DNA of 64,000 nucleotides from assembly GCA_013239625.1 (NCBI GenBank), contig MU053334.1:445190-509189 (forward strand). Direction: 5' to 3'. Made by a program: the position numbers and the translations under genes. The stretch is from Lama guanicoe. Its lineage: Eukaryota. Each line of letters starts with the position of its first letter. Position 1 is the stretch's first letter. Below the pieces are notes generated by a model. That model did not search any database. It had not been told where the DNA came from and saw only the letters and a list, made by a program, of their open reading frames with translations. Shown piece by piece: positions 1 to 38,197 of the stretch.

Positions 1-745
1 GGCTGGCTGGATTCTGCTAAACCGAACTTTACCAAAGAAGGTGGAGACGTTGAATCCGTTGAGAATGTCTGTAATTTAGGCTCAGTAGCCAGGATCTCCT
101 GCAGAGCCACCATGTTTCCCAGCGTTCCCCTGCAAGAGCTTGGACAAACTGTGGTGTGCGACACTTCTGTAGGGCTTGTGTGCAAAAACCGAGACCAGAA
201 TCCAGGGGGAGCCACCCCCATGCCTTACTGCCTCAACTATGAGATCAATGTCTACTGCTGTGTTCCTCGCCCTGAATGCCTCACAACGTATCCCACCAGC
301 ACCTCGCAGATCACAACCACGACACCCACCACCACCTCAACAGAGCCCCCAACTTCGACCTCCCCCACCACGGAGACCACAACCCCCAGCACGACCACCA
401 GCACCGGGACCACAACCCCCAGCACGGCCACCACCACGGAGACCACAACCCCCAGCACCACCATCACCACGGAGACCACAGCCCCAACACCTACCATCAG
501 CACCACCTCCACAGGGACTCCTACTCCGACACACACCACCAGCTCCACAGTGACCCCAACCCCAACACTCACCACCTCAACAGAGCTTCCAACTTCGACC
601 TCCCCCACCACGGAGACCTCAACTCTCAGCACAACCACCCCGACGGAGACCCTGATCACCTCTCCCCTCCGCACCTCCATAACCGGCCCTAGTGCCGCCA
701 CCATAGAGAAATGCTGCGAGTTGAATGGAGAATTCTACAGCCCAG
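1..745 (+). CDS. MUC2: MUC2 central exon end: CysD (1-~279), PTS (~280-711), CCELNGEFYSPG
   Basis: Frame 1 is open from base 1 (GWLDSAKPNFTKEGGDVE...SCRATMFP...). Donor CAG|GTATG at 745/746. Confidence 0.93.
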
Positions 746-3700
746 GTATGTGTCCAGGCTTGTCGCCCTGAACTCCCAGGTTGTGGCTGTGTCTGTCGTG
801 CTTGTGGTCAGGGTAGCGTCCTGGCGAAGCCGGCCCCTCGTACTGCAGCTTGGCTGTTGAGAAAGTGTGGCATGGGCAGCCCTCTCGCGGCCACCGGGCG
901 ACCCACCTGTGTCCTCTCGTGGCCACCCTGTGTGGATGGTGTAGGACTGTTGTCTCCCTTGCAGGCGAAGTGACGTACAACGTCACCGAAGGAGGCATGT
1001 GCCATTACGCGCACTGTTTGCAGTCTTGTGAACTCAAGTTCTTCAATTGGTCGTGCCCGTCCACACCCTCTACAACGCTCAGCCCGCTCCCCACCACCAC
1101 GGCCCCATCATCCACAGCCTCAAGCGTGTCCACCACCACCCACCCTCCTGGGTGCCTGGACTTCAACCCTCCCAGAAAGGTCTGTGGTTTCTGTGCAGCT
1201 TTCTCCCCAAGCACCGGGCGCATGCCCCCACCACCAGGTCTTGCAAAGCCCCAGGCGCTGCCTTTCTGCTGGTCGCCCAGGGCACCCTGCCCCCTGTGCC
1301 CCGCACCACCTGCAGTCAGGGCACAGGGTCTGCCGGAGCCCTTCCAAGTCCCCACCACATCCCCATTGCCGTGGGGCCGTGCTGGCGTCCCTCCTCTGGG
1401 GCCGGGCTGCAGACTGGGCCCGGCTGATCCTGTGCCTGGCCTGCCCGCAGGAGAACGAGACGTGGTGGCTGTTTAACTGCACGATGGCCGTCTGCAAGCA
1501 CGACAGCACCGTGGAGCTGGTGGAGGTGGAGTGCAACCCCCCCCCGATGCCCACCTGCTCCAACGGCCTCACGCCTGTGCGCGTCAAGGACCCGGACGGG
1601 TGCTGCTGGCACTGGGAGTGCGACTGTAAGCCCCCCGCGCCAGCTCCCTTCTGTGTGTGTGCTGGGGGGCGGGGTGCACACCGCAGGTGGGACAGGCTGG
1701 CTGTAATGGCTGAGGGCCGGGCACACGTCTGGAGGGACTTGACTTGCCTCCAGCTTACTGCCCTCCTCAGGCAGGGGTCCGGGAGAGGGAGGGGCTTTCC
1801 TGGTGGGGCGCGGCCACATAGAAGGGCTGCGGCCTGGGGCAGCTGGGGTTGGGAGTGAAGTCAGGCCCTGCCCTTCGGAGGGAACACACTCGTGGGGCCC
1901 TGATGCCCCACGCGCCCTGGGCACCAGGCTTATGGGGCCTTCCTCAGTTTCCACTTGCTCTTCCCCCTTGTGCCTTGTCCCCTGACTGTGTCCTGTCCCC
2001 GCCCCCGGGGCTGGGCGCCGGCCCACCTCGGCCGCTCCGCAGGCTACTGCACCGGCTGGGGGGACCCGCACTTCGTCACCTTCGACGGGCTGTACTACAG
2101 CCACCAGGGTGCGTGCACGTACGTGCTGGTGGAGGAGGCCGTGCCCACCGTGGACGGCTTTGGGGTCTACGTCGACAACTACCACTGCGACCCCCGCGAC
2201 CGGGTGTCCTGCCCCCGCACGCTCATCGTGCGCCACGAGACGCAGGAGGTGCGGCTCGAGACCGTGCAGATGGCGCCCATGACGGTGCAGGTAGGCCGGC
2301 GGCGGGGCCGAGCGTCCGAATGGGGTGGGCTGGCAGGGCCGGTGTCAGCTCCCTCGCTGGGGGGGGCCTTGCCCCAGGGCTGCGCGGGGGCAGCACTCAG
2401 TGGACATGTCAGCTCTCCTCACAGGCCCTCCGGGGCATTCAGGGACCCCGTGACCCGCCACCCCTGCTCCTGCCAGGCACCCTGGGCACAGGTCTGTGTG
2501 GCAGAAGCCCCCTCCCTGAGCACAGGGGCTCTGTGCGCCCCGCGTGGAGTTGTCATTTCCCATGGCGTGGAGAGCCCCGCCCCCTGCGCGGTTCCCCCCA
2601 AGTCTCCGGGGGCTCAGAGGACAGCGCCCTGGCTACCTGGCCCCTGGGACTAGTCAGGATGAAGGTCCGGCCCAATGCGGTGGGAAGGAAGAGGGAAGGA
2701 AGAGGGAAGGCAGAGGGGCGCGGGCACAGTGTGAGGGTGGGGGGACCCGGGTACTTTCCAAAGGCACCGCACGCTCCGGTCAGACCCATGAGGCTCCCGC
2801 CGGCCCTCCCTGACCCGGTGTGGCGGCCACAGGTGCAGGTGAACAGGCAGGCCGTGGCGCTGCCCTACAAGAAGTACGGGCTGCAGGTGTACGAGTCGGG
2901 CATCAACCTCGTGGTGGCCATCCCCGAGCTGGGCGCCCTCGTCTCCTACAACGGCCTCGCCTTCTCCATCCGGCTGCCCTACCGCCTGTTCGGGAACAAC
3001 ACAAAGGGCCAGTGTGGTGAGCCCTTGACCTCGGCCCCCGTGCCTGCGCTGGGGAGGGCGGCTGGGCAGAGGCTGTCTGTGGGCCCCGCCAGCCCCGCTG
3101 TGGTTCTCTGCTCTGCTCAGGGTCCCCACAGCCATCCTCCCGGGTTTGGGCCCAGCGGGAAGCCAGCGGGAGTGCAGTCTAGCCTGTGCCCTGGGCCCTG
3201 GGCAGCTGGGCACCAGGGGACCTGGGCTGGAGGAGGGGCGGTGTCTCAGGGGCTTGCTGGGTCTGCTGGACGAACTGGGCGGGCCCGGGCACACGGGGAC
3301 CTTCTCCCCCACCCAGGCACGTGCACCAACACCACCGTGGACGACTGCGTGCTGCCCAGTGGGGAGGTCGTCGACAACTGCGAGGTGGCGGCTGACCAGT
3401 GGGCGGTGAACGACCCCTCCAAGCCGCAATGTCCCCACACCAGCTTCACCACCCAGCGCCCGGCCACCTCGCCGTCTGCGGGCAGCACCACCGTGGGCGA
3501 GGCCTGCGCGTCTCCTCTCTGCGAGCTCATCAAGGACAGGTGACCCTGACCCCCGGCCGGCTGCTGCCTCGATCAGTCGTGGGCTGCAGGCTCCCCGAGA
3601 GCGGCCTCCCCCCTCTGTGACCCCACCTCATGGACAGAGAGGAGGTGGCAGGGGCCGAGCGTGGGGCTGGGAAGGCAGGTGTCAGGGCACCACGGGCAGG

Positions 3701-6700
3701 TGCCGGTTCACAGAGGGGCCCAGTAATCGGGCTCCAGGTTTCCACGGGGCTGAGTGGCCTTGTTTGACATCCGTGTGCCCTTTGCAACCCCCCGAACCTC
3801 ACCTGCCTCCTGGATGGTGCAGGGGCCGCTGAGCTTGCAGCCTGGGGTAGACCAGTTGACGGGGCAGAGCAGCACCCGGTACCTATAAAGGGAGGCAGAT
3901 GTGGGCTTAGACATACAAGGGGTGCTCCCAGAGCTGGCCTCATGGAGCGAGCGCCTGGTCCCCGGGGGTGTGCGCCACAGGGCTGGGAGAACCCCGCAGT
4001 GTTGTGGGAGGGGGCATCTTGGCACCCAGCGAACATGGAGATGCGGGGATTCCATCTCCGGGAGCCAGATTGCCCAAGGCCTCGTCCTCGGGCCACAGCG
4101 AGGGCCCCCCTTCCCCAGGGCCTGCCCTGCTCCCTCTGCTCCCACCGTCAGCCTGCCTGTGTCTGCCTGGTTGGAAGCAACCTGAGCCTGGCTCTAGGAG
4201 GGCAGCCCGGGTAGAGGTGGTGGGTAGGGGGAGTGTCGGAGAGGCGGGGCCCCGAGCAGACCCTGACAGGCCCCGCCCCCACAGCCTGTTCGCGCAGTGC
4301 CACGCCCTGGCGCCCCCGCAGCACTACTACGACGCCTGCGTGTTCGACAGCTGCTTGGTGCCCGACTCGGGCCTGGAGTGTGCCAGCCTGCAGACCTACG
4401 CCGCCCTGTGTGCCCAGGAGGGCATCTGTGTCGACTGGCGGAACCACACCCGCGGGGCCTGCCGTGAGTGCCCGCCTGCCCCGCCCAGGCTGGGGTCCTG
4501 CAGGCCAGGGGGCTCTCCGGGCTCTGCCTGAAGCCAGACTGGGGTGGGGCGGCCTGGCACGCACAGAGACCAGCTTTGCTGAGCACAGCGGGGCTGGGGA
4601 CGGCGTGGGGGTCTGGGGCGGGCAGCACCGGGCACCTGGCCTCCCGCAGCCTGGGTGGGAGGATGGGGCCCTTCGTGGCAGGGGCTGGGCAGGACAGTCA
4701 GTAGCGGGGCAGGCACAGGCTGCTCCCTCTGACTCTGGCCCCTCGGACGCCTGCCTCCTCCCGCAGAGGTGAAGTGCCCGGCTCATCGGGAGTACCGTGC
4801 CTGTGGTCCCGCAGAAGAGCCCACCTGTCAGTCCAGGTGAGGCGCCCGTGGAGGCGCTGGGAGGGCAGGCTCTCCCCTCTGGCGGTGCTTCCGGGTGGCC
4901 CCGTGTGGGCCTGGGGGTCCGGCCTGTCCCCACCGCCCATCTCATCGCGCCCTCCCGCCCCCAGCCCTTCCCAGGAGAACAGCACCCAGCTGGTGGAAGG
5001 CTGCTTCTGTCCCGAGGGCACGGTGAACTTTGGTCCCGGCTTCGACGTCTGCGTGGACTCGTGCGGTACGCTGCCCCCCGGTGCCCCCCGCCCCCGCTGA
5101 GGCTGAGCCCTGCCCGTGCCGCACCAGGGCTGTGCTCACAGCGGCTGCTGCCTCTCTTTCCTAGGCTGCGTGGGGCCCGACAACGTGCCCAGAGAGGTAA
5201 GCCAACCCCTGGGTGCCGGGGCCGCCTTCTCCCACAAAGGCCAAATTTTGGGGTGTAGGAAGGGCTGGACATGAGAGCCGGGGACCCTCAAAGACTGAGT
5301 CCTGAGTCATTTAATTCCCGGACGGCTGGGCTAGGAGGGGTAGCCACCCCCGCACCCCTCCCTGGTCCACCCAGCTCCGCGTCCACCCCCCGCTCCGCGC
5401 CTCCGCCCGCTGGTCTTTTGTTGCTGTGCACACCTGCGGAGGCGGCGTCTTGGCCACTGCAGAGCTGTGCGCGTCTCCTGCACGCGGTTGATTCTTGAGC
5501 TCTAGTCTGCTCGAGCCCCGCAGACACACGTGGTTTCTGCCGGGTGCGTGCTGTGTAGGTGGACGGTGGTGAGCAGGTCAAGGTTGTGGTCTCAGTGACC
5601 TGGCCCTGAGGGGAGCCCCTGTCCTGGCCCAGAACCTGCCCTGAGGGCTTGAGGTGGCAGGTGCCTAGGCGGGGAGGCGATGGGAGGGGGACGGGGAGGT
5701 GGGGCGGGGGTGGGGAGGAGGCGCGGGTAGGGCACAGGCTTTCCCGCAGGCAGCTCGAGGGGGTGGGCTGGAGGCGCGGGTAGGGCACAGGCTTTCCCGC
5801 AGGCAGCTCGGTGGGCTTCCAGGCGTGGTGCCTTGTCTCCCGGGGACCCCAGACCAGCTGCACGGAGGCCGAGGCCCAGGGCCAGGTGGGCCGGCGCCCC
5901 CTCCCTCCCCACTCACCCCTTCCTCCCTGCAGTTTGGGGAGCACTTCCAGTTCGACTGCAAGGACTGCATCTGCCTGGAGGGGGGCAGCGGCATCAGCTG
6001 TCAGCCCAGGGCGTGCAGCCAGGCCCCCCGCCCTGAGTGCAGGGAGGACGGCACCTACCTGGTCACCGAGGTGGACCCCGCCGACCCCTGCTGCAGCATC
6101 ACCTCCTGCAGTAAGGCGCCCCTGGGGGCAGGGAGTGGCCTGGGCCGCGGGCCGTCCCCTCCTGGGCCCCCAGGGTCCCCGAGCGTGTCCCCGCTACACG
6201 GTTTCACCTCCTGGCTGAGCCGGGAGCCCTGACTTCGCGGCCCGTTGGAGGCCGGGGCCACAGGGCGCGTCCCCGGGACGGTAGGGCTTGAGGAGGCCGT
6301 GTGCCCAGGGCTGGAGGGGTTCCTGCTGCAGGGCCCGGCTGGGGGGCTCGGCCTGGAGGAGCCGTGCTCACCGGCGCGTCTCCGCCGCTCTTCAGAGTGC
6401 AACGCCAGCCTGTGCAGGGAGAAGCCCCTGCTGTGCCCGCTGGGATTTGAAGTGAAGAGCGAGATGGTCCCCGGGAGATGCTGCCCCTTGCACTCGTGTG
6501 GTAGGTGTGCCGGGGCCAGGGAGGCCGAGCAGTGGGCGCCCGCTCCCTCCCCGGGGCTGGGCGGTGCTGGGAGTGTGGGTTGGGGGGAGGGGCTCCCCCC
6601 TGGGGGCTCCCTGCCCCTCGCGTGTCCACCGGCTGTGCGTCCGCCGCCGGGTCAGGAGGACTGTCTGACCCTCGCCCCGTTGTTCTTCGTCCCAAGTGCC

Positions 6701-8788
6701 CAAGGGCGTGTGTGTTGTGGAGAACGCCGAGTACCAGGTGAGGCCTGGCTGGCTGCAGGGGGAGGGCGGGGTGCAGATGCGGCTTGGGAGTGGGGTCTCA
6801 GCAGGCTCTCGGGTGGCCGGGGGCTCCGTTGGTGCCTGCACCAGGGTGCCCAGCCCTCTGCAGGCAATGGGGGGCCGGCGTCTGTCCGGGAGGGGGGTGA
6901 AAGGTGCCACGGCGGCCCCCCTCACCCGCCCTTCCCTGTGCCCCAAGCCCGGTTCTCCAGTCTATTCCTCCAAGTGCCAGAACTGCGTGTGCACCACCAG
7001 CAGGGACAGCGCCACGCAGCTCAACACCATCTCCTGCAGCCACGTGCCCTGCAACACCTCCTGCAACCCCGTAAGCGCCCCTGCCCCGGCCGAGTGTGCT
7101 GCCGCCCGCGGTCGGTCGCTCGGAGCCCTTCTCTCTCGACGCCAACCGGCCCGTGGGTGTCCTGCAGGGCTTCGAGCTGGTGGACGTCCCCGGGGAGTGC
7201 TGCAAGAAGTGTCAGCAGACGCACTGCATCATCCAGCAGCCCAGCGACCAGCACCTCGTTCTGAAGGTACGCACACCCCTCCTTCCCCAGGGCGAGGCTG
7301 GCCCTCCCGGCGCCGCCCGGCTGTCCGGTGCCCTGTCTCTCCTCGGGACAGCGGTCCTAGGGCTTTGCCCCCGCCCACTGGGTTGTCCAGGGTGACCTTA
7401 TCTCGAGGTCCGTAACTGAGTCACGTCTGCAAGGCACCTTTTCCAAATAAGGTCACCTCTGCAGGTTGTGGGGGTTAGAATGCGGACACGTGGGTGGACT
7501 ACATACAGGTGGTGGCTGTCCGTGCGTCCCGGTGGTTCTGGGCCTGTGGGCTGGACCTCCGGTCCCAGAAGCCGCACTTGGCAGGGTGGTCGGGGAGCTG
7601 CAAGGTGTCGGGGTGGTGCCCCCGCCAGCCTCACCCGGCCTCTCTCTGCCCCACAGCCCGGTGACATGAAGAATGACCCCCTGGACAACTGTACCCTCTT
7701 CAGCTGCGTGAAGTTACACAACCAGCTCATCTCGTCCGTCTCCAAGATCACCTGCCCCGACTTTGATCCCAGCACCTGCCTCCCGGTGAGCCGGCCGGTC
7801 TCTGCAGGAGCGTGGGGCCTCGGTCTTCCCGGAGGGCTGGGTTGCAGCTGCCCTGGGAGGCTCTGCTCTGGGCCCCTTCTGCAGGAGCTGCCCCTCGCCA
7901 TCCCCGTCGCAAGAAGGGGGTCTCACTGTTGGGGGACCTGGGGGTCTCAACTCATTCCCCTCCCCTCCAGGGCTCCATCAGTCTCATGTCCAATGGCTGC
8001 TGCAGGAAGTGTGAGTACAGGCCAGGGGGCGGCGCTCCCGGGTAGGGGTTGGGCTGGGCAGGGGGCTCCCTGGGCCCCCTTGAGGCACAGGGGGATGGTC
8101 CTCCGTGAGCTGCGTCCCCTCTGTGACACTCTGGCTGGACGCTGAGTTGGAGGTCATCACCTGGGGTGCCCAGGAAGCCTGAATCCCCTCCCAGGGAGGA
8201 GCCGGACAGAACCCAGCTTGCTTCAGGGCAGGGAGGTGGGGCGCTTGGGGAGGGGAGAGGAAGTGGGCAGGGAGAGCCCAGGGCTCTGGAAGGTGGAGCC
8301 CCCGCCCTGAGCCTCGGCCCCTCCCCGCAGGCATCCCTCGCAATGAGACTGGGATCCCCTGCTCCATGGTCTCCGTCATCAGGGAGATTTCCCACAACGG
8401 CTGCACCGAGTTGGTCAGCATGAACGATTGCTCTGGGTCTTGCGGGACCTTTGCCATGTGAGTCCCGCGTGGGGAGTGGCCCTGAGGGGCCGCGGAGGGG
8501 AGGCAGCAGCCGCCCGAGCAGGAGCAGGCAGTGGCCCCTCACTGCGGCCTTCCTTCCCCCAGGTACTCAGCCCAGGCCCAGGCCCTGGACCACAGATGCT
8601 CCTGCTGCAAGGAGCAGCGCACCAGCCAGCGGCAGGTGGCGCTGCAGTGCCCGGGCGGTGGCACACTCAGCCACACCTACACCCACATTGAGAGCTGTGG
8701 GTGCCAGGACACCACGTGCGAGCTCCTGTCCCCCCAGGACAGGGCTCGGCGCTCCATCCCCAGGCTGCTGGCCCCAGGGAGGAGGTGA
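1..8788 (+). CDS. MUC2: Mucin-2, 3' portion (5'-partial; 19 exons in window)
   Basis: Exons 1-745, 965-1179, 1451-1625, 2043-2290, 2833-3016, 3317-3539, 4285-4463, 4767-4836, 4965-5065, 5165-5196, 5933-6110, 6396-6500, 6697-6737, 6948-7070, 7168-7266, 7657-7785, 7971-8010, 8331-8457, 8563-8788. All introns are GT-AG with matching phases. The spliced protein runs GWLDSAKPNF...CLNYEINVYCC (CysD), PTS, CYCTGWGDPH (D4), ...HTYTHIESCGC...RARRS, colinear with the MUC2 C-terminus as I recall it. Confidence 0.97.
965..1179 (+). CDS. MUC2: MUC2 exon (EVTYNVTEGG...FNWSCP...DFNPPRK)
   Basis: Acceptor ttgcag| and donor AAG|GTCTGT; Cys pattern as in MUC2. Confidence 0.92.
1451..1625 (+). CDS. MUC2: MUC2 exon (ENETWWLFNC...CCWHWECD)
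   Basis: Acceptor cgcag| and donor T|GTAAG. Confidence 0.95.
2043..2290 (+). CDS. MUC2: MUC2 exon, start of VWD4 with GDPH autocleavage motif (2060-2071)
   Basis: CYCTGWGDPHFVTFDGLYYS; donor CAG|GTAGG. Confidence 0.96.
2833..3016 (+). CDS. MUC2: MUC2 exon (VQVNRQAVALPY...GNNTKGQC)
   Basis: cacag| ... G|GTGAG; VWD4 translation. Confidence 0.95.
3317..3539 (+). CDS. MUC2: MUC2 exon (TCTNTTVDDC...LCELIKD)
   Basis: cccag| ... AG|GTGAC. Confidence 0.94.
4285..4463 (+). CDS. MUC2: MUC2 exon, C8 domain (LFAQCHAL...DWRNHTRGAC)
   Basis: cacag| ... C|GTGAG. Confidence 0.95.
4767..4836 (+). CDS. MUC2: MUC2 exon, TIL (VKCPAHREYRACGPAEEPTCQS)
   Basis: cgcag| ... AG|GTGAG. Confidence 0.93.
4965..5065 (+). 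CDS. MUC2: MUC2 exon (PSQENSTQLVEGCFCPEG...CVDSC)
   Basis: cccag| ... G|GTACG; phase compatible with both neighbours. Confidence 0.9.
5165..5196 (+). CDS. MUC2: MUC2 micro-exon (CVGPDNVPRE)
   Basis: tttcctag| ... GAG|GTAAG. Confidence 0.93.
5717..5810. repeat. Intronic tandem duplication, period 53 bp
   Basis: GGAGGCGCGGGTAGGGCACAGGCTTTCCCGCAGGCAGCTCG is identical at 5717-5757 and 5770-5810. Confidence 0.95.
5933..6110 (+). CDS. MUC2: MUC2 exon, VWC (FGEHFQFDCKDC...CCSITSC)
   Basis: ctgcag| ... A|GTAAG. Confidence 0.95.
6396..6500 (+). CDS. MUC2: MUC2 exon (CNASLCREKP...CCPLHSC)
   Basis: ttcag| ... G|GTAGG. Confidence 0.94.
6697..6737 (+). CDS. MUC2: MUC2 exon (PKGVCVVENAEYQ)
   Basis: AAG acceptor (cccaag|), donor CAG|GTGAG; the frame requires this acceptor. 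Confidence 0.88.
6948..7070 (+). CDS. MUC2: MUC2 exon (PGSPVYSSKC...CNTSCNP)
   Basis: AAG acceptor (ccccaag|), donor CCC|GTAAG. Confidence 0.9.
7168..7266 (+). CDS. MUC2: MUC2 exon (GFELVDVPGECCKKC...HLVLK)
   Basis: ctgcag| ... AAG|GTACG. Confidence 0.94.
7355..7500 (-). mobile_element. MLT1 (MaLR) LTR fragment in a MUC2 intron
   Basis: tcacgtctgcaaggcaccttttccaaataaggtcac...ggggttagaatgcggacac resembles the MLT1 5' end in reverse (recalled consensus). Confidence 0.7.
7657..7785 (+). CDS. MUC2: MUC2 exon (PGDMKNDP...DPSTCLP)
   Basis: cacag| ... CCG|GTGAG. Confidence 0.94.
7971..8010 (+). CDS. MUC2: MUC2 exon (GSISLMSNGCCRK)
   Basis: ctccag| ... T|GTGAG. Confidence 0.93.
8331..8457 (+). 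CDS. MUC2: MUC2 exon, cystine knot first half (IPRNETGIPC...CSGSCGTFA)
   Basis: cgcag| ... AT|GTGAG; CxGxC knot motif. Confidence 0.94.
8563..8788 (+). CDS. MUC2: MUC2 last coding exon, cystine knot second half, RARR motif (8741-8752), TGA stop
   Basis: cccag|; YSAQAQALDHRCSCCKE...HIESCGCQDTTC...RARRSIPRLLAPGRR*. Confidence 0.95.
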
Positions 8789-17600: not shown

Positions 17601-18479
17601 AGGAATACGTTAGCGCAGCAAGTTCGGAGGGAGAAATGAGGAGCCACTGTGGGGCGTGCCTTCTTCTGCGGGGCCATGTCTCTTCCCCTTCTGTCCCCTC
17701 AGCTCCTGCCGCCTCATCCTTCACTTCCTCCATCTCAGGGACCGTGCAGTGGCTTAAGGGCTTAGCCAGATTTGAAAAGAAAAGCTGGGCGTGGGCATCC
17801 CCCGTCTCCCCTCTCCCTTCCTCTGGGGGCTGGCCTTGCTTCTGCAAGCAGGGGGCTTGTCTGGGCCGGTGCTGCTGGCGGTTGGAGGGTGTCCATTCCT
17901 CTCTAGGGGCCAGAGTCAGCAGGCACACTTACCCGCAAGCACGATTCTGGGCCTCCAGCCCAGAGGTTATAACGGACAAAACCAGGGTTGGCCCCGCACG
18001 CACCAGCTGCCCTTCCTTCTTCCCGGCTGGTTCCAGCATTCAGCTGGGGAGGGTGCTGTGAACGAAGCTCCGCCACCACCCGAGGACCCCAGCAAAATAA
18101 GCGAGAAGCTTTACCGAGCATTTCAAGCAAGGCTCAGCCACAAAGAACCCCCTGACTCAGTGGCGTCTCAGTCAGGGCCGCGCTGCTGTGCGGCAGTGAC
18201 ACGAGCCCCTGTCTTGGTGCCTTGAGGCAACAAAGCTTTTGTCCCATGCCCACGTCACGTCTGTTTCCCTCGGTGGGTGCCCTGTTCCCCTTTTCTCGCT
18301 CCAGGACCCATGGTGATGGGGCAGCTATCGCATCAGAGATCATGCCTGCCTGCCAGGTGGCAGGTCCGGCCTGGTGTCTAAATCCTTGGAACGAAGGGCG
18401 ACCTGGCTGCCGGCAGCCACCAGGGTCAGGATGTGAGATACTGCTGTGTGAACAGGGTGGGGAGCTGGCCATGGTGACT

Positions 18480-19600
18480 TCCATGGCAGATTTAAAGAGG
18501 AAAACCTTTAACAGCTGCAGAAAGAAAACACCTGATGAAAGTAAACAGCTTGTGTTGATTTTTTCTTTTTAAAGCAAACTAAGACTAGAAGGAAACACTC
18601 CTAATCTGTTAGGGAGTATCGGTCAAAAAATGGCAGCAAACACCAGATTTAGTGCTGCAACTTTAGAATCGTTTCCATGGAAGTCGGGAAAACAGAGGCT
18701 GGCTACAGTGACCGCTTTCAGTCCACGGGGTCTGGAGCTTCTTGCCAAAGCAACGAAACAAGAAAAAAAAAATCAGGATTTGAAAAAAACAGAACAAAAC
18801 CGTCCTGATTTAAAGACAGTGATTATCAAGACGAAAAAGCCAATTAGAATTCAGTAACGTTGTTGGATACAAGGCTAATGGAAAAAAACACACAAACCGA
18901 TAGCATTTATTTAAGCTCATAAAAACCAAGTGGAAAATACAATAGAGAATTATCTCATTAACACGGCCACAAAGCCCACGCAAATTCCTGAGAATAAATC
19001 AAACAGAACATGTCTCAGTCCATTAAGAGAAAATGGCTCTATGTCCTGGAAGGGCACGTGGGGGAGGTCTTACGAAGCAGAGAGAGGTATGCCCTGCTCA
19101 TGGATGGGAAGATGCGATTTTGAAAAATGACACCAATTATTGGCAAATAGCTGAATAAAACCCAAGAAAGTAGCTTTCACAACCCCGACAGAGTTCTTCA
19201 CGGGTTGTGGCAGGCGGCCCTGACGTGAAGGTCAAAGAACAGAGAAGAACCAAGGGTTCTCAAAGAAGCACCAGGTGGGAAGGCTGTCTCCAGAGGCAGC
19301 ATGGCCGTGGTGCGGGGATAGGCAAGAGGACCGTGGAACAGACTGCACGCAGGATACTGGCTGCCGTGGGGACGGCCTCCACAGCTGCAGGGAGCGTGGG
19401 CCTTTAGTACCTGCTGCTGGGGCAGTTTCCCTCTGTGGGGAAGTTGGAAAGAGGTCTCCACTTCACGCCCCAAACTAAAATCAGACACCAAGTGGCTTAA
19501 AGAACTAGGTGTGAAGAGCCAAATGTTTAAACTCTTAGGAGAAAATGAAGCCTCTGACGTCAGGGCAGGGAAGGGCTTCTTAACCAAGGCACTAAAAGCC
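18480..19600 (+). mobile_element. Old L1 ORF2 fragment
   Basis: LESFPWKSG..., LELLAKATKQEK and MPCSWMGR relics; A-rich. Confidence 0.8.
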
Positions 19601-20552
19601 ACCTGCGGGCTCTCCTGGGCGGGCCTACCTTCCAGACACAAGTGACAAAACAAGCAACAAGCAGACACTTGGCCTCTGGGCTCCAGGAAATGCAAGGGAA
19701 CCAACCTTGGGACCCGCATTCACCCGCCAGACCTTCTGTCCCGGCTGGCCTGCCGAGAGGCCGGGCTGGTGAGAGGGAGTGGGACCCCGAGGCAGGCTGC
19801 GTGCCCGCCCCCCAAGACGGCACGTGCCTGTCCTGGCGCCAGATGCGGCGGTGAGCCCAGACCTGTGTGCGCAGCCCGCACGCACCGCAAACAGTGCTGA
19901 GCGAGAACAGACGGCTGGCTCCTTGGACACCGACCCACCTCTGTGGATTTCCGACGTCACCCGGGGTCTGTAACACGCACATTTACAAACGTGGTAAAAT
20001 TATAAAAGAAACTTTGAGAACCATGGAATTCTGGGGCTGGAGAGGTACCAGTTCTATCTATAATATTTTATTTCTTGACGGAAAAATATTGAAGCAAAAA
20101 TGTCAACTGACCAACATTGGCTGAGGCTGGATGGCTTGTTCTGGACAATGTGTTTGAAGCCTCTCCGAGGGAGGAGGAGACGGGGGCTGGTGGGCGTGCC
20201 CGGCCCCGTCCAGAGCCAACCCGGGCCCGGCAGCAGCGCGGAGCACACGCCGCAGGGGAGCCGCAGGTCCGGGCCTGAGCCACTTGTCCACGGTGCGGCC
20301 AGCCCCTCCCCGCATAAGCCGGCCGGCCGAGCCCACAGCCTGTGACCAGGAGGCCAGAGCCGGGGCCCTCGGCGTGATGGGGCCCTGAGAACCGCATGGC
20401 GCCTGGTGGCCCTTGAAGGAACCTCTGCCAGCGTTTGCTGGTGGTGTCGAGTCAGATCCCGTCCGTTTAGGGTTCTGCGGCCACTTCCTGCCCCCGAACA
20501 GCCTGCTGAGGATTCTCTCCCCGTGCACTTCTCCCGGTTTGTTCTTGCAGGT

Positions 20553-20855
20553 TGTCGTGGGCTGGACTGTGTTCCCCAGTTTGTATGTGGGGGTCCTGAG
20601 CCCACAGCCCACAATGTGACTGTGTTTGGAGGTGAGGGCTTCAAAGAGGTGATTAGGTGACATGAGGTCCCTGGGGTGGGTCCTGAGCCCACAGGCCTGG
20701 TGTCCTTACAGGAAGAGGAGATCAGGACACAGACACACGCAGAGGGACACCACGTGAGGACGCGGGAGAAGACGGCCCCACCCACGCCCGGCCCTCGGAC
20801 TCCCGCCCCCAGGACGGGGGACAGTAAACAACCAACAGTGCTGTTTAAGTGGCCT
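20553..20855 (+). mobile_element. MLT1A-like LTR
   Basis: aatgtgactgtgtttggaggtgagggcttcaaagaggtgattagg...ggtgtccttacaggaagagg...gctgtttaag. Confidence 0.85.
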
Positions 20856-23447
20856 CAGGAAGCACTCCCTGATCAGCCCTGTGACTGCACTGGGAGGGGG
20901 ACCAGGAGCCCTGGGCCGAGGCTCAGAGAGGGCCATGGGGCTTCGGGCCATCCCCTCCGGCGTCCCCACCAAGAGGCCACGCCCTGCACAGCTGGGGAGG
21001 GACGCTCGGCGCCCCAGGCCGGGGGTGAGGCGGCTTCATCCAGGATACAGTCTTGAGGTGGCAGAGAAGGGCCAGCGACCTTGGGGGTCATGCGGCTGGG
21101 GCAGGCACCCCAGGACACAGAGCCCCAGAGACCGTGACCCCTGGAGGCAAGGCCAGGGCCTCCCCCTCGCTGCCCGGCTTCCCTGGGAGGCCCTGGCCCC
21201 GACAGCCCTCCTGGCACGGCTATGCTGCAGAAAGCGCCTGCCCTGTCCCAGCCAGAAGCGCTTCCCAGGCCCCAAGCTCCCGTTGTTCCCGGTGCTGACC
21301 GCCAGGCCCACAAACACCCTCCACAGTCTTTCTGCCACGTGGCTGGAGAATGGGGTCACGGCTCCCTGCAACCAAGCCGCCGTCCCCACACCATTAGCGG
21401 TGGGCATTTTCCATCCCCAGGCCCCTTGGGGTCCGCAGGTCTATTTAACCAGGAGCTGGGGAGATCAGGCTGTCGCCAGCTGGCACCAGAGGGGTCCCCC
21501 GGTAGCCAGGGGCCAGTGGTGTCCTCTCACCTTGTTACGGAAACGACAGGCCAGCCAGGAAGCAAGCACCACTCGGAGGGCTGGAGTACTCAGATGTATT
21601 ACGCCGGCGGGCTCAGAGGGGCTTCTGCTCCGAAGCTCTGAGCACCTCCAAGACGTGCACATGAGGTTTTATAGGGTTAAGTACAAGCTTGGGGTGTTTG
21701 GCCAATAGGCATGGAACAGCTTTAGCAACATCATTATCACAAAAGTAGAGGCAGTGAGGCAGCAAACCAACATTTCAAGGCCAGATATGTCTCTTTGAAA
21801 ATCCAGCTGGCCAGCAAAGCATGAACAGGGAATCAGCAAACCGACACTTACTAACTTAGATTTACGAGTTAGCCCAGCAGAAGTCAGATCAGTAATGTGA
21901 CACTTGTTACACTTAGACTTGTGACTTAGCTCGTTGGCCCAGCTGGGCTTTTCCTTCGCAACCTGGGGCCGTCCCTGGGCTGCCCCGAGGACCGGGAAGC
22001 GGCTGCTGTCTGTGAGTCAGCATCCTGGGACAGCGAATCACCTTCCTGCTTCCTGCACGGGGCGCATGGGGGGCTGGGCTGCACCTGTGCCCAGCGCACG
22101 GCCTGGGGCCGGGAGACCGCCTCCCCGCCACCGCGGCGCCGAGCTTGGCCAGACCCCTCCCCGGGGAGCCTGGGTGCTGCCCCTCTGCCGTCTGGGCCCT
22201 CTGGCGCCTGCCCACCCAACACTGCCGAACTGGCCCCTCGACGCTCTGCTTGAAGACGGAGGCCCCGGCACCGGAAACTTGCAGAGGTAGCCCCCACCCC
22301 TGCGTGACCCCTGCTTCGTGCCAGCTCTCACCAATGCTCGGGCAGGGGTCTCTGGGTGGGGGCACCCTGTACCAGGACACCGGCTTCTGTGAAATCAGGG
22401 CTCAGACAAGGCCAGCCCCCAGCAGCAGCTCTTGGCCAAACAACAAGCATCTCAAAGCCCTTTTTGGCCTGTTGGCCTGAAATGGGCCGGGCTCCAGGCC
22501 ATGGAAGTTTACCCAACACTGCTCCCATCTCTCCTACCCTCCCTTTGCGGGGCCAAGCGTTGGCATCGTTTAAAGAGCCAGACCGAGGCTCGCCGGGAGG
22601 GCAGAGGTACCAGCCGCCCCTTGGAACCCGAGGGATCTTGCTTGGTTGGATGGAGGGCTGCTGTCTCCTCTGTGGCGTCTCCCAAGGTGGCTGTGCCAGG
22701 GCGGCTTCAGCCACTGCCGGGAGCCCGTAGGTGCCTGTGGCACAGGGAGGCCCATGTCCCTGCACCGACGTGGGGACAGGTGGGTGGGATGCGGATGTGC
22801 TCCTGGTGGCCGCTGACTCCCTCTGCCACAAAGCCCCAGGTCTGGAGGTCGGACCCTGGCTCATGAGGGTGTAGCTCTGACCATCCCCAAGCCACCGTGT
22901 TTCCAGGACGCAGCACAGCCTCCTGCCTCTCAGTCCCTTCTCCACACATCTGTCTTGCAGGTCGGGCTCTCTAAGGACCCGCAAAGCCTAGGGTCGTTTT
23001 ATGTCCTCGAGCTGGAGCCACAGTTTGGCTTAAATATAAAATAAAATTCAGAGTTCTTGTCTTTCTGCACTTACAAAATACCACTCCTGGGTCCCGCAGC
23101 CAGTGCGCGCATGGAGAGGTCAGAGGCCGACCCCGTCTCTCCCCTCCTCTCTGAGGCTGCGGTGTGACGCCGGCCAGGCAATGCGGGCCAAGGGATCCGC
23201 TGCCACGGGCCGGGCCCAGGGCGCCGCGGGCACCTGCCGGGTCCCCCCACCCCCGTTTCTGTCCCTGTTGGTTCGCTCCCCTGTTCTTACGGTTCGCACC
23301 GACAGAATCCTACGTAGGAACCCCCGCCTGTGAGATTCACGCTTGTGGTGGGTGTCAGACGCTCACGCTCATTACCGAGTGGTGCTGCGAGCCGCCGCAG
23401 CTCCGCGCGCGCCCTGCTGTTGGTGGGTGTTCGGTTACTCCCAGCGC

Positions 23448-23810
23448 TGTGGGGTGAGCTGTGTCCCCCACAGACCCGTGTACTGGAGCCCGAACACCAC
23501 GCACCTCAGCCTGTGACCTTCTTTGGAAACACGGTCAGGTGGTGATTGAGTGAAAGTGAGGCCGTTGGGCTGGGCCCTGACCCTACGTGACTGGTGTTTC
23601 TAGGAAGGGGGATGTGGAGGCCGACACGCACACAGGGAGGACGGACGCCGCGCGAGGATGAAGGCAGAGAGCCAGGTGACGCCGCCGAATGCTGCGGGTG
23701 CCCAGACGGCAGCAACCCCGGAGCTGGGGGGCTCGGACAGACCCTCCCTCAGAGCCTCAAGGGAGCCAGCCTCGCTGGAACCTCGAGCTGGGGCTCCCGG
23801 CCTCCAGGAA
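23448..23810 (+). mobile_element. MLT1B/C-like LTR
   Basis: tgtgaccttctttggaaac...gactggtgtttctaggaag...ccctcagagcctc...ggcctccagg. Confidence 0.8.
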
Positions 23811-23814
23811 GGTC

Positions 23815-24120
23815 CGTGGCGTTAAGCACGTTCACACTGTTGTGTGACCAGCACACCATCATCTCCAGAACTTGTCCCTCTCCCCAAACTGACGCTCTGT
23901 CCCCATTAAACACGTGCTCCCCTCCCCCCCCCCCCCCCCCCCCACCCCCCTAGGGCCGGAATGCCCTTCCTTCTTATGGCTGAGTAGTGGCCCATCGTGT
24001 GGATGGACCGCGCTGTGTGTCCACTCACTGTGCTGTGTGGACACTCGGGCCCCCTCCACCTCTTGGCTGCTGTGAGGAGCCCCGCGTGAATGTGGGTGCG
24101 AACGCGTGAGTTCCTGCTGT
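23815..24120 (-). mobile_element. L1MB-type 3' UTR fragment with poly-C tract (~23919-23950)
   Basis: ttaagcacgttcacactgttgtg...ctccagaac...ccattaaac...ttcttatggctgagtagt. Confidence 0.82.
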
Positions 24121-24539
24121 CGGTGACCCTGGGGCTCCTCCAGGGTCTTCCTGAGGAGAAAGGAAGGCTGAGCTCCGGCCCTCAGACCCCCCAGACCAGA
24201 CCCGTCCCGGCCAGGCCCTCACCTGACCCCTGGAGAGATGGGGAGCCTCCGTGGGTTTGACCCACCTGCCCAGGTGCTTGGAGGGGAAGGCGGGGGAGAA
24301 ATTCTGAGAGCGCTGGTGCATGGCCCTGCCTGGCTACTCCACCAGGACACGCGTCTTTCCCCTTGGCTGCCGGGAAGACCGCTGCCAGCCTCTGACCTCT
24401 GACCTCACGACCCAGGAGTCTGTGGAGGGCTGAGACCAGACGGAGGCTGGAAGGCCTTCCTCCAGCCCACCTCCCCGCAGCCTCCCACGGCCCCTCCCTG
24501 CCCAGCCCTGCCCGCCCTCTCAGCACACTGGCCTGGAGC

Positions 24540-24625
24540 TCTCTCTCAGCATCTCTGTCTCTGTCTCTCCCGGTCTCTCTCATTCCCTCTATCCCTGTCT
24601 CCCTATCTCTCTGTCTCTGTCTCTC
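24540..24625. repeat. (CT/CTCTGT)n low-complexity tract
   Basis: ctctctcagcatctctgtctctgtctctcc...ctctgtctctgtctctc. Confidence 0.7.
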
Positions 24626-27339
24626 AGACCACTCCCCACTCAGGGGGCTGACCAGAGACTGCGTCATTAGACAGGGCTTACTTAAAACCCCGTAAATCTT
24701 ATAACTAAATAAGGCAGCTGGGCCAGCCCTGTGTACAAACAGGAAGCGTCCGTGCGGCCTCCGCCCCAGTGCTGGGAAAGGCAGGCAGTCCCCCAGCGTC
24801 TGGTACTTCCCCTCCAAGTGGCAGGAATCTCCTTTCAAGGTGCTCAGCGTCCTTCCAAGGTGGAAGGGGGCAGCGCTGGCGGCTGTGGGTGATTCACAGA
24901 GAAAACGGTGGACCGTGGCCTGGGAGCTTGCGGGGCAGTGAGTCTGGGGAGCCGCTGGGGGTCCCAGGCACGGTTCAGAGCAGCCAGGCACTCAGGTTCA
25001 GGCTGGATTCTGGGTCATGTTTGACGCTGGGCCCTGGCCATCCTGCTCCCACTAGGGTGTGTGCATGCGGACTGCTGCTCGGGACGCCGGCTGGCGGAGT
25101 AGCCGGTCTCTGTGGGGCAGCCACGGTTACAGGACGAGCAAGAGGAGGATCAGGTGCCTGGTCGTCACCCCGCTCGGCGTCTGACTCCAAGTCCAGGGTC
25201 TCACGTGCCAAGTCCTGTGCCCTGGACCTGCCCCTTTGGGGAGCCCTTCCTGGGGGAAAGAGGCCACGTGGCCTGTGCTGACCCTCGGGGGACGTCCGTG
25301 TGTTTTCCTAGCTTCCCTTCACTGTGTCTTTTAGAGAAAATCACGGACACTTCTCAGAGGCAAGAAGCCACCGCGTTTCCAGCCACGGGGAGCTGGCCGT
25401 CGCCCGCCAGGGCGTTGGGCCGTGGGCACGTCCACATCCACCCACGTCGGCCCTCCCTGTCCTTGCACACCTGGGTGGGATGTGTTCGGGCCGCTGGGAA
25501 TGGGGGCTTCCTTTCAACCTTGACCCCCTGCAAATTGTCCTCCCTCACCCGATGGGCCCTGCTCTGGGGCGGCTCAGCCTCACGGTTTGCCAGGCCGGGT
25601 CCGCCACCCCGGCTGCTGCCTTGGGAGCCCCTGCTGCATGGCTGCAAGGCCAGGAGGGGTGTAGACAGGAGGGCTGTACCTCGGATCGGGCCTCCCAGCT
25701 CCTGCGGGTCTGGCTGGAGGCAAGGCTGCTCGGGCCGCCGCCTGGGGCCCTGACGCGGTGACCTGACCTCGGAGGGTGCTCAGCTCGTTGGACCTGCAGT
25801 GTTCCCCATGGGGCCAGGCACAGCCAGGGCTCCATGCAGACTTGGCTGGGCCTACCAACCCTTCCCTTAGCCCTGACGCAAACCCCAGACCTCATTCTTG
25901 CAACCACCAGCTTCCCCGCGTCGCACAGTCCCGCCAACGCCGTGCTCTGTCCTTGAGGGTGGGGGAGAGGCCTGCCCTCCGAGGGCCCGCCTGCAGGCCT
26001 TGTCTTGGGAGGCCCTGGGAGGGGAGGCGTGAGGCCTGCAGGGTGGGCCAATGGCCACCCTCCTCCCGTGGGTGCCCCGAAGGCACAGAGGGGGCAACGC
26101 CCCCCACCGCCACCCGCTCCACAGGCGCCCGCTCCGGGCAGGCCAGCCCAGGCGGCATTGAAGGTGCTTGTCTGTCTCTGTCCCTCAGACCACTCCCCAC
26201 TCAGGAGGCTGTAGGACAACTGTCCTGGGCCCGGAAGCTAAGGTTCTATGCTGACTGTGCGGATCACCACCTGTTTGGCGTGAGGTCCCGGGGGGCAGGC
26301 TGTGTCCTCCCCACTCCCCCTGCGCCCTGCCCCCAGGCATGTGTTGGTGGGACAAGGAAGGAGATGTCTCCTCGGGGCAGCTGGCCAGGCACAGGCCCTC
26401 AGAAGTGGGGGCACTCAGGCAGCTTGAGGACGGCCCCACCCCGGCCTGCAGGCGGCTGTCACCCTGTCCTCCCGTGCCTCCGCCAGCACGGCTACGTGGT
26501 GGGGCCCGGAGGCGGCCTTGGAATCCTGGTGAGTGCCCTGGGCTGGTGTGCAGTGCTGTGTGAGGAGCAGCCCCGCCGCCGGGGAGCCTGGCCTCCGCTC
26601 TCGACAGGAGGCTGCTGCCCAGGTCTGGTTTGCCGAGGGAAGTGCCCACCCTGGCGTCATCGTGGACGGGTCTCTCAGAGCAGGGCATCAGGAGCCCCAG
26701 CCCAGCCTCGGCCAAGCCGGAGCCCTGGGTGCAGAGAAGTCAGGTCAAACCCGCTGCCTGGTGTTTGGCCCTTCCCTCTCCTCCCCGGGGGCGTTCCCAC
26801 GTGAAAGCTCTGGTAGACCCGGCCTTTGCTCTGTGAGCGGGGAGGGACAGGGAGGGTGCCTTCCTCTCCTGTGAATAGACCTGCCCTCCAGGGCCCCCAG
26901 CCAAGGGCTCCCAGCTCGTGGCTCAGGCTCCCCAGGGAACCGGAACCACCGCCGAGGGCGGGAAGGCATCCTGGATCAACCCCGTGGGCAGGCGCGCCGC
27001 CTTAGTCATCTGCCCTCAAGCTCCCCTTCGGGGAAGCAGCACCCCGCTAATCCCCGCTGCCGCGGCCACAAGGCCCCGGGGGCAGGGCCTCTCTGCCGCG
27101 TGTGCCCGCCGGGGCCCCCGCCCCGGGCGGCCGCTTGGTCGGTCAGGAGGCTTCGGGCAGACGCGGTGGTACACGTCCACCGGGGCCAGGCTGCGTGAGC
27201 TCTGCCGGGCCCAGGGCCAGGGGCCCAGGGCCTCCTTCCCTTCTCCCTCAGTCCCTCCTGTCCTCGGCCAGGGGGGTGCTGCGGCCTCGCCTTTCGTGGG
27301 CGAGGCTGCCCTGGAAGCGCTGGTTTATCTTTAACACTA

Positions 27340-37320: not shown

Positions 37321-38197
37321 GTTCAGACACAGGTGTCAGTCGCAGGGGTCAGTCACAGGGGTCAGTCGCAGGGGTCAGTCACAGGGTCAGTCATGGGGTC
37401 AGTCACAGGTGTCAGTCACGGGGTCAGTCACAGGTGTCAGTCACAGGGGCAAGCAANNNNNNNNNNNNNNNNNNNNNNNNNNNNNNNNNNNNNNNNNNNN
37501 NNNNNNNNNNNNNNNNNNNNNNNNNNNNNNNNNNNNNNNNNNNNNNNNNNNNNNNNNNNNNNNNNNNNNNNNNNNNNNNNNNNNNNNNNNNNNNNNNNNN
37601 NNNNNNNNNNNNNNNNNNNNNNNNNNNNNNNNNNNNNNNNNNNNNNNNNNNNNNNNNNNNNNNNNNNNNNNNNNNNNNNNNNNNNNNNNNNNNNNNNNNN
37701 NNNNNNNNNNNNNNNNNNNNNNNNNNNNNNNNNNNNNNNNNNNNNNNNNNNNNNNNNNNNNNNCACGGGGTCAGTCACAGGTGTCAGTCACGGGGTCAGT
37801 CACCGGTGTCAGTCATGGGGTCGGTCACAGGTGTCAGTCACAGGGTCAGTCACAGGGTCAGTAACGGGGTCAGTCACAGGGTCGGTCACAAGTGTCAGTC
37901 ACAGGGGTCAGTCACGGGGTCAGTCACAGGGGTCAGTCACAGGGGCCAGTCACAGGGGTCAGTCACGGGGTCAGTCACAGGTGTCAGTCACGGGGTCAGT
38001 CACAGGGGTCAGTCACAGGGGTCAGTCACGGGGTCAGTCACAGGTGTCAGTCACAGGGTCAGTCACGGGGTCAGTCACGGGGTCAGTCACAGGTGTCAGT
38101 CACAGGGGTCACTCACAGAGGTCAGTCGCAGGGGTCAGATGCAGGTGTCAGTCACGGGGTCAGTCGCAGGGGTCAGTCGCAGGTTCAGACACAGGTG
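37321..38197. repeat. Minisatellite of 12-13 bp units (GGGGTCAGTCAC[A] and variants), interrupted by an assembly gap
   Basis: Dozens of GTCAGTCAC units on both sides of the N run; bounded by GTTCAGACACAGGTG at 37321-37335 and 38183-38197. Confidence 0.95.
37457..37762. other. Assembly gap (306 N)
   Basis: Run of N. Confidence 1.

What the first reader, a model, noticed from the sequence alone, without database searches (positions are those of the whole stretch)
1472..1474. MUC2 appears to lack the cysteine of the MUC2-specific inter-chain disulfide (Cys>Phe)
Seen: the exon reads ENETWWL-F-NCTMAVC, with codon TTT one base from TGT; the other expected Cys in this exon are present. Known (recalled): human reads ENETWWL-C-DC, and mouse also has WWLCNC. 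Cryo-EM of the human MUC2 C-terminal dimer found an extra homotypic disulfide (Cys4379-Cys4379') absent from VWF and other gel-forming mucins, proposed to stop the dimer unzipping. This position is 58 residues before the Asp of GDPH, which by my count is that cysteine. Inference: this animal's intestinal mucin dimer would be held only by the cystine knot, VWF-style, a natural loss of a mucus-stabilising bond.
Basis: partly seen in the sequence, partly recalled or inferred. Interest (0 to 1): 0.75.

Follow-up and report, generated by a model that had tools for sequence, protein, structure and literature searches.

The report
Camelid MUC2 bridging cysteine reads phenylalanine
In this camelid genome assembly the gut mucin MUC2 has phenylalanine where every other animal checked has the cysteine that ties two mucin chains together a second time, but this rests on one base that could not be checked against reads and may be one allele or an assembly error.

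Summary
Codon 1472-1474 is TTT, inside a cleanly spliced MUC2 exon (1451-1625). It aligns without gaps to human MUC2 Cys4379, the cysteine of the homotypic VWCN-VWCN' disulfide: it lies 58 residues before Asp4437 of GDPH.

All 170 of 170 orthologue sequences that cover the site have Cys. These include alpaca, Bactrian, wild Bactrian and dromedary camel, birds, reptiles and Xenopus. So this is not a camelid trait. It is private to this assembly's haplotype. No compensating cysteine appears, and the rest of the C-terminus, including the cystine knot, is intact.

The wider inference, that this animal's dimer is held by the knot alone, is not shown. The exon lies in the only stretch (1338-1705) that has no second copy in the assembly. 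It is flanked by unplaced contigs, one of which is a 6.4% divergent, alpaca-identical second haplotype. No llama, guanaco or vicuña protein was in the survey.

My odds: a real missense allele of unknown zygosity 0.45, consensus error 0.35, species-wide loss 0.10, unresolved duplicate copy 0.07. Interest is moderate and depends on read confirmation.

The parts
1472..1474 (+). Codon TTT (Phe) at the position of human MUC2 Cys4379
   Evidence: sequence. (gap-free alignment to 7qcl/7qcu/7qcn). (58 residues before Asp4437 of GDPH). (Cys in 170 of 170 orthologue sequences covering the site).
1451..1625 (+). Exon encoding most of the VWCN domain, including the dimer-interface residues (human L4378, F4382, T4391-E4393, I4394)
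   Evidence: Splice sites. tblastn of camelid and human-like MUC2 proteins. Interface residues named (passage).
964..1179 (+). Preceding exon (...GCLDFNPPRK), which carries the start of VWCN. It lies inside the stretch where a second haplotype exists.
530..1337 (+). Stretch duplicated by unplaced contig C11201 (L003) with 52 substitutions in 808 bases and no gaps. The coding part of the contig is identical to the alpaca MUC2 model.
1338..1705 (+). The only part of the region with a single representation in the assembly. It is bracketed by the ends of C11201 (1337), C44631 (1327) and C51815 (1706).
2043..2293 (+). First VWD4 exon. GDPH is at 2060-2071 and is followed by Phe (TTC, 2072-2074), where the four camelid models have Tyr.
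8333..8785 (+). Cystine-knot exons (8333-8458 and about 8564-8785, with an intron between). They are intact and all Cys match the orthologues.
   Evidence: Cys_knot Pfam match of the camel model P0004 that maps here.

Best explanation
The window holds the 3' end of the MUC2 gene of a camelid on the llama/alpaca side, followed by paralogous mucin genes. On the haplotype that the scaffold represents, a single G-to-T change turned the codon of the VWCN bridging cysteine (human Cys4379) into Phe. Shown: the codon, its exact equivalence, its uniqueness among the orthologues, and the intact remainder of the C-terminus. Inferred: the base is real and belongs to an unusually divergent MUC2 haplotype carried by the sequenced animal, at unknown frequency and zygosity. 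Also inferred: chains from this allele can still dimerise covalently through the cystine knot in the ER, and they can still pack VWCN against VWCN' through the conserved hydrophobic and beta-strand contacts. They cannot form the second covalent link. Phe/Phe dimers would therefore be VWF- or MUC5B-like and able to open at the VWCN end. Cys/Phe heterodimers would leave one free thiol.
For: The codon and exon structure are. The gap-free alignment to solved human MUC2 is, and the numbering is.

The interface residues are kept. L4378 is Leu, T4391-V4392-E4393 are identical, and I4394 is Leu. F4382 is Thr, as in 128 of 170 orthologue sequences, which read C-N-C-T.

Nothing suggests an error-ridden or decaying gene. 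Of 261 columns that are at least 95% conserved outside camelids, the window departs at 4. Only this one is private to the window. The counts for the other camelid models are alpaca 3, C. ferus 4, Bactrian 2 and dromedary 1. All C-terminal exons are open and the cystine knot is complete.

The scaffold haplotype is strongly divergent just upstream. It differs from the alpaca-identical contig C11201 at 52 of 808 bases, and in exon 964-1179 by 12 synonymous and 6 non-synonymous codon differences. The exon with TTT also differs from alpaca at a second residue, Ser for Asn. A real extra substitution on this long branch is therefore plausible.

The change hits the one conserved cysteine whose loss should not misfold a domain, since the paralogues manage without it.
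Against: None of the 14 DNA runs of four coded organisms holds more than 0.80 of the 45 sampled words of 1250-1750, so the exact sequence was not seen whole anywhere.

The site is Cys in 170 of 170 sequences spanning amphibians to mammals, so a real change is a priori rare.

The stretch is 68-70% G+C. It lies exactly between the ends of three unplaced contigs, which marks a hard-to-assemble spot. The change is a single G-to-T difference.

The link between TTT and the divergent haplotype is an inference. The second haplotype's copy of this exon is not in the assembly.
Confidence: 0.45

Rival explanations
1. Assembly or consensus error. The true codon is TGT, as in alpaca and camels, and T at 1473 comes from a thinly covered or gap-filled G+C-rich stretch.
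For: It is a single-base difference at a site invariant in 170 of 170 orthologue sequences. The exon lies in the 368-base stretch between contig ends at 1327/1337 and 1706. The region is 68-70% G+C. The assembly has 55,231 contigs, and many unplaced pieces duplicate this gene at 100% identity: C51976, C47510, C43627, C36236 and C20032. This suggests a patchwork build. No run holds all sampled words.
Against: The reading frame, the nine-C run and all other Cys of the exon are correct. The window shows no excess of odd residues at conserved columns compared with chromosome-level camelid models. The neighbouring differences from alpaca form a coherent haplotype, with states shared with Camelus, and are not noise.
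Confidence: 0.35
2. Species-wide loss. The species behind this assembly has fixed Phe, so its intestinal mucus network relies on the cystine knot alone at the C-terminus.
For: The survey holds only one llama-side species, alpaca, and no llama, guanaco or vicuña protein. Across the gene, the window's MUC2 differs from the alpaca model by about 3% of residues: 30 mismatches in about 945 aligned N-terminal residues and 17 in 468 C-terminal residues. Some of these mismatches are exon-edge artefacts. Distances within Camelus are about 1%. The scaffold copy could therefore be a different species' normal gene.
Against: The same assembly holds an alpaca-identical second version of the adjacent exon, which points to heterozygosity rather than fixation. 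The site is invariant from Xenopus to mammals.
Confidence: 0.1
3. The exon belongs to, or is a collapse with, an extra partial copy of the MUC2 3' region, so the Phe need not sit in the expressed MUC2.
For: The assembly holds three versions of the sequence just upstream (1091-1327): the window, C11201 and C44631. Two dromedary 'Mucin-2' models on one contig overlap over 325 residues with 3 differences, which indicates either a true or a false duplication in a relative.
Against: Only one MUC2-type VWCN exon is found in the genome, by DNA and by protein. C44631 has the architecture of an internal repeat, with the PTS run joined straight to GCLDFNPPRK as in the Bactrian and dromedary models. It may belong in the N run just before the window. 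The window copy is collinear with a complete, open C-terminus and with the paralogous mucin genes downstream.
Confidence: 0.07

Closest known systems
Human MUC2 C-terminal dimer (PDB 7QCL, 7QCN, 7QCU; Gallego et al. 2023, PMC10082768)
   Same: It has the same domain and exon. Over the 58 residues the match to 7qcl_A has E 9.8e-29 with no gaps. The interface residues L4378 and T4391-E4393 are identical, I4394 is Leu, GDPH is present and the cystine knot is present.
   Different: Cys4379 is Phe. F4382 is Thr within an N-C-T sequon, as in most non-primate orthologues.
Alpaca and Camelus MUC2 models (P0067, P0064, P0065, P0066)
   Same: The VWCN exon matches at 56 of 58 residues (97%). The exon structure is the same. 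The window shares several states with alpaca against the camels: N at 1535, TVGE at the end of exon 3316-3537, and Q in exon 7168-7266.
   Different: All four models have Cys at the site and Tyr after GDPH. The window also has further private residues: H, Q and K in exon 964-1179, A and R in 5930-6109, and T in 8333-8458.
VWF, MUC5B and MUC5AC C-terminal dimers
   Same: None has a cysteine at this position. The paper states this. The animal's own two downstream paralogue exons read Pro and Glu. Calling them MUC5AC and MUC5B rests on recalled gene order, not on a tool. The expected behaviour is the same: a covalent link at the cystine knot only, and non-covalent contact at the VWCN end.
   Different: The window gene is a MUC2 orthologue by sequence and position. 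The residue is Phe, not Pro or Glu, so gene conversion from the paralogues does not explain it.

Membership tests
MUC2 orthologue | Best matches are MUC2 proteins, with the domain order VWCN-VWD4-C8-TIL-VWC...-cystine knot | tested here: met
   (top hits are Mucin-2 of camelids and other mammals). (exon-by-exon mapping). (VWD, C8, VWC and Cys_knot in the camel model that maps here).
MUC2 orthologue | GDPH autocleavage motif in VWD4 | tested here: met
   GGG GAC CCG CAC at 2060-2071.
MUC2 orthologue | Position in the mucin gene cluster, followed by paralogous gel-forming mucin genes | tested here: met
   VWCN-like exons 72 kb and 115 kb downstream on the same contig. VWD-like hits at window 58.2-61 kb. 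The gene names are recalled.
MUC2-type doubly cross-linked C-terminal dimer (Gallego et al. 2023) | Cysteine at position 4379 of VWCN, forming the homotypic disulfide | tested here: not met
   Phe. All 170 orthologue sequences covering the site have Cys.
MUC2-type doubly cross-linked C-terminal dimer (Gallego et al. 2023) | Non-covalent VWCN interface residues (L4378, F4382, V4392, I4394; strand T4391-E4393) | tested here: inconclusive
   L, T, V and L, with the strand identical. They are conserved or conservative except F4382T, which is the majority state. Whether Phe4379 fits the two-fold axis was not resolved.
MUC2-type doubly cross-linked C-terminal dimer (Gallego et al. 2023) | Cystine-knot domain with its cysteines | tested here: met
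   blocks 8333-8785: no Cys differs from the orthologues.
VWF/MUC5B-type dimer, covalent at the cystine knot only (a way of working, not a gene family) | No cysteine available for a VWCN-VWCN' bond, and none gained nearby | tested here: met
   no new Cys in exons 964-1179 or 1451-1625. This holds for the assembled sequence only.
VWF/MUC5B-type dimer, covalent at the cystine knot only (a way of working, not a gene family) | A CK-less C-terminal fragment is monomeric on a non-reducing gel | not testable with these tools
   This needs recombinant protein. The human CK-less MUC2C-N is described as a dimer of about 250 kDa in gels run under non-reducing conditions (passages only).

The most novel reading that the evidence does not exclude
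A natural knock-out of the MUC2-specific second inter-chain disulfide exists in South American camelids. It is carried, perhaps at appreciable frequency or fixed in one species, on an old MUC2 haplotype that is about half as far from the alpaca reference as camels are. That would suggest long-maintained functional diversity in the architecture of the gut mucus network.
Probability: 0.1. Interest if true: 0.7.

Novelty: new variant of a known kind. Interest (0 to 1): 0.35.

Why it matters
Gallego et al. proposed that the Cys4379 bond is 'probably vital' for keeping the MUC2 network covalent in the protease-rich gut (passage). A word search of that paper's main text found no mention of mutants or reducing/non-reducing gels. 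Only 5 papers in the held library contain both MUC2 and VWCN.

An animal that lives with Phe at this site, especially a homozygote, would be a ready-made test of that idea. It would also show that a site invariant from frogs to mammals can be lost. As it stands, the case rests on one base in one draft assembly, so its value is that of a cheap, well-defined lead.

Tried and rejected

Metagenome host DNA. An exact scan for the codon context with G or T found 0 matches. A protein-guided scan matched 397 stretches, none of them a relative.

Short database proteins of 31-102 aa. Six hits, none camelid.

Earlier notes of this scan. Nothing on this genome or on look-alike stretches, and the word search gave only unrelated phage and bacterial mucin-like proteins.

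Complex prediction. Two copies of the 58-residue exon product gave 'no answer' (score 0.02, mark 0.32, alignment not used). This is no evidence either way.

Gene conversion from the paralogues is rejected, because they read Pro and Glu, not Phe.

A compensating cysteine is rejected.

General decay or relaxed constraint of the gene is rejected.

The N-C-T sequon next to the site looked special at first, but it is the majority state, in 128 of 170 sequences.

It was replaced by fetching the upstream 60 kb and running tblastn in a script.

Full report
**1. What is in the sequence**

Window 1451-1625 (+) is an exon. It has an acceptor ...ccgcag|GAG and a donor GAC T|gtaagc. Its split last codon is completed by GC at 2043-2044.

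The exon reads ENETWWLFNCTMAVCKHDSTVELVEVECNPPPMPTCSNGLTPVRVKDPDGCCWHWECD(C), and codon 1472-1474 is TTT. The next exon continues YCTGWGDPHF, with GDPH at 2060-2071. The Phe is therefore 58 residues before the Asp of GDPH.

**2. Which residue it is**

The exon product aligns without gaps to the solved human Mucin-2 chains 7qcl_A, 7qcu_A and 7qcn_A (E 9.8e-29 to 3.4e-27). In those chains the aligned residue is Cys: ENETWWLCDCFMATC.

In Gallego et al. 2023 (PMC10082768; I read passages, not the whole text or the supplements) GDPH is at 4436-4439.

The interface residues named in the paper are L4378, F4382, V4392, I4394 and the strand T4391-E4393. In the window they read L, T, V, L and an identical strand.

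**3. How unusual it is**

Three database searches gave 183 cluster representatives:
- 57 of 60 candidates of 103-2000 aa.
- 6 of 6 candidates of 31-102 aa.
- The best 120 of 176 hits among 270 candidates of 1982-5000 aa.

Of these 183, 13 start after the site. The other 170 all have Cys. They are sequences, not species, and several species appear more than once.

They include Vicugna pacos (P0067), Camelus bactrianus, C. dromedarius and C. ferus (P0064-66). All four read WWLCNCTMAVC. They also include birds, a gecko, a turtle and Xenopus laevis.

The animal's own two downstream paralogue exons read Pro and Glu at the site. This agrees with the paper and excludes gene conversion as the source of Phe.

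No new cysteine appears in this exon or the preceding one.

**4. Is the gene otherwise healthy?**

Yes. All C-terminal exons map in frame, and the cystine-knot cysteines are unchanged.

Of 261 columns that are at least 95% conserved outside camelids, the window departs at 4. Two of these sit at columns where other camelids also depart, and one is shared by all camelids. Only C>F is private to the window. The counts for the other models are alpaca 3, C. ferus 4, Bactrian 2 and dromedary 1.

So there is no sign of pseudogene decay or of a generally error-ridden sequence.

**5. What animal and what haplotype**

The exon is 97% identical to the camel and alpaca models and at most 91% to anything else.

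Downstream of the exon the window shares several states with alpaca against the camels. Yet across the gene it differs from the alpaca model by about 3% of residues:
- 17 of 468 residues in the C-terminal exons.
- 30 mismatches in about 945 residues in the N-terminal exons fetched from the same contig.

Some of these mismatches are exon-edge artefacts of tblastn.

For scale, alpaca against camels is 5% (N-terminal) and 2.7-2.9% (C-terminal), and camels among themselves are about 1%. The scaffold copy is thus a llama/alpaca-side MUC2 that sits unexpectedly far from the alpaca reference.

**6. The assembly around the codon**

The genome has 2.05 Gb in 55,231 contigs, and the window is C650:445190-509189. 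Several things in it bear on the codon:

- **C11201 (808 b).** This unplaced contig aligns to window 530-1337 without a gap but with 52 substitutions (6.4%; 28 transitions and 24 transversions). In exon 964-1179 the two versions differ at 12 synonymous and 6 non-synonymous codons. The contig's version is identical over 72 residues to the alpaca protein. The window version has three states shared with C. ferus and three private ones.
- **C51815 (994 b).** This contig equals window 1706-2699 but for one base.
- **C44631 (472 b).** This third contig ends at 1327. It joins a PTS run directly to ...GCLDFNPPRK, as in the Bactrian and dromedary models. It is probably an internal repeat of the gene.
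- **Further unplaced contigs.** Several repeat window 2700-5677 at 100% identity. A 314-base contig is 95% identical to an upstream intron.
- **The exon itself.** The stretch 1338-1705, which holds the exon, is the only part with no second representation, whether searched by DNA or by protein.

The whole region is 68-70% G+C.

I read this as an animal that carries two very different MUC2 haplotypes. The scaffold follows one of them, in a locus that assembled badly. Which haplotype carries T at 1473, and whether the other carries G, cannot be told from the assembly.

**7. Reads**

Fourteen DNA runs of four coded organisms hold 0.58-0.80 of the 45 sampled words of 1250-1750, and none holds all.

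Scans of metagenome contigs found nothing.

The decisive check was therefore not made.

**8. Weighing real against error**

For a real change:
- The scaffold haplotype has a long private branch.
- The exon has a second difference from alpaca.
- Frame, homopolymer run and all structural cysteines are right.
- The one cysteine hit is the one a mucin can fold without.

For an error:
- It is one G-to-T base at a site that is invariant in 170 sequences.
- It sits in a G+C-rich stretch between contig breaks.
- No run holds the stretch whole.

My rough reckoning is an estimate, not a computation. It sets the rate of private departures at conserved columns in the other camelid models (about one per 261) against plausible draft error rates of 1e-4 to 1e-3 per base. 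This gives odds near even, somewhat in favour of real. My final odds are:
- 0.45 for a real allele of unknown zygosity.
- 0.35 for an error.
- 0.10 for fixation in the species.
- 0.07 for an unresolved extra copy.

**9. Mechanism if real (inferred)**

MUC2 chains would still dimerise through the cystine knot. They would still be able to pack VWCN against VWCN' through the retained hydrophobic and strand contacts, but without the covalent staple.

Phe/Phe dimers would then behave like the MUC5B and VWF C-termini described in the paper. They would be covalent at one end only and could be pulled open, and after any cut between VWCN and the knot they would no longer bridge two PTS domains. In a heterozygote, half of the dimers would pair Cys with Phe and leave a free thiol.

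Whether two Phe side chains fit on the two-fold axis is open. The complex prediction gave no answer.

Published support that the human bond forms without the knot comes from PMC12775068 (passages only). There the CK-less MUC2C-N is referred to as a dimer of about 250 kDa, and its gels were run under non-reducing conditions.

A word search of the main text of PMC10082768 found no mention of mutants or gels. A review notes that it is unclear whether the bond forms in full-length MUC2 (PMC11207715, passage).

**10. Novelty**

A search for MUC2 with VWCN returned 5 papers. Of these I opened passages of three, and those passages mention no natural loss of Cys4379. The listing for MUC2/alpaca/llama/camel terms showed none on camelid MUC2.

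If real, this is a new natural variant of a known protein feature. If it is an error, it is nothing.

The deep second haplotype is the more solid oddity. It is recorded separately under things noticed in passing.

Noticed in passing
window 530-1337 versus L003 (G000:C11201:1-808): A second version in the same genome is gap-free but 6.4% different (52 of 808 bases; exon 964-1179 has 12 synonymous and 6 non-synonymous codon differences). The unplaced version encodes exactly the alpaca protein. The divergence is about half the alpaca-camel distance at this exon (6 against 11 residue differences). It could be an old balanced haplotype, a species difference plus admixture, or a mixed assembly. This was not resolved.
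   Followed up: partly
L006 (G000:C44631:1-472), matching window 436-632 and 1091-1327: A third version, 87-92% identical, runs a PTS tract straight into ...TTTQTPGCLDFNPPRK plus the intron start and skips the Cys-containing block EVTYNVTEGGMC...NWSC. The Bactrian and dromedary gene models have the same architecture, while alpaca, C. ferus and the window have the block. It is probably an internal repeat lying in the N run C650:441397-445189.
   Followed up: partly
window 1706-5677 and unplaced contigs C51815, C47510, C20032, C36236, C43627, C51976: Six small unplaced contigs repeat the scaffold sequence at 99.9-100% identity and abut or nearly abut one another. One example is 2699|2700. The assembly is redundant and patchy across MUC2.
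   Followed up: partly
window 2072-2074: GDPH is followed by Phe (TTC), where alpaca and all three Camelus models have Tyr. Contig C51815 carries the same Phe. Mus caroli also has GDPHF, so this is probably harmless.
   Followed up: partly
window 1475-1483 (N-C-T): The residue after the bridging site starts an N-x-T sequon in 128 of 170 orthologue sequences. Human and other primates read C-D-C-F and lack it. Whether a glycan sits next to the disulfide in most mammals is not addressed in the passages I read.
   Followed up: no
proteins P0003 and P0037 (both 'Mucin-2 [Camelus dromedarius]', same 8.5-Mb contig): Two gene models overlap over 325 residues (VWCN to C8) with 3 differences, at sites that also vary among Camelus models. 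This is either a tandem duplication of the MUC2 3' part or two haplotypes laid side by side in that assembly.
   Followed up: partly
G000:C650:518990-519163 and 561476-561643 (L027, L028); window about 58.2-61 kb: Two paralogous gel-forming mucin genes follow MUC2 on the contig. Their VWCN-like exons read EGETWAMPNCSQATC and ANESWILENCTVAWC. The start of the first paralogue lies inside the window. The names MUC5AC and MUC5B come from recalled gene order only.
   Followed up: partly
window 18303-25758: The last 294 residues of the database model P0004 map here in pieces at 48-97% identity. They have no Pfam domain and read like non-coding read-through. This is probably a spurious fusion in that model rather than a gene.
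   Followed up: no
window 37457-37763 and 49446-49919: Two runs of N (307 and 474 bases) lie between MUC2 and the next mucin gene.
   Followed up: no
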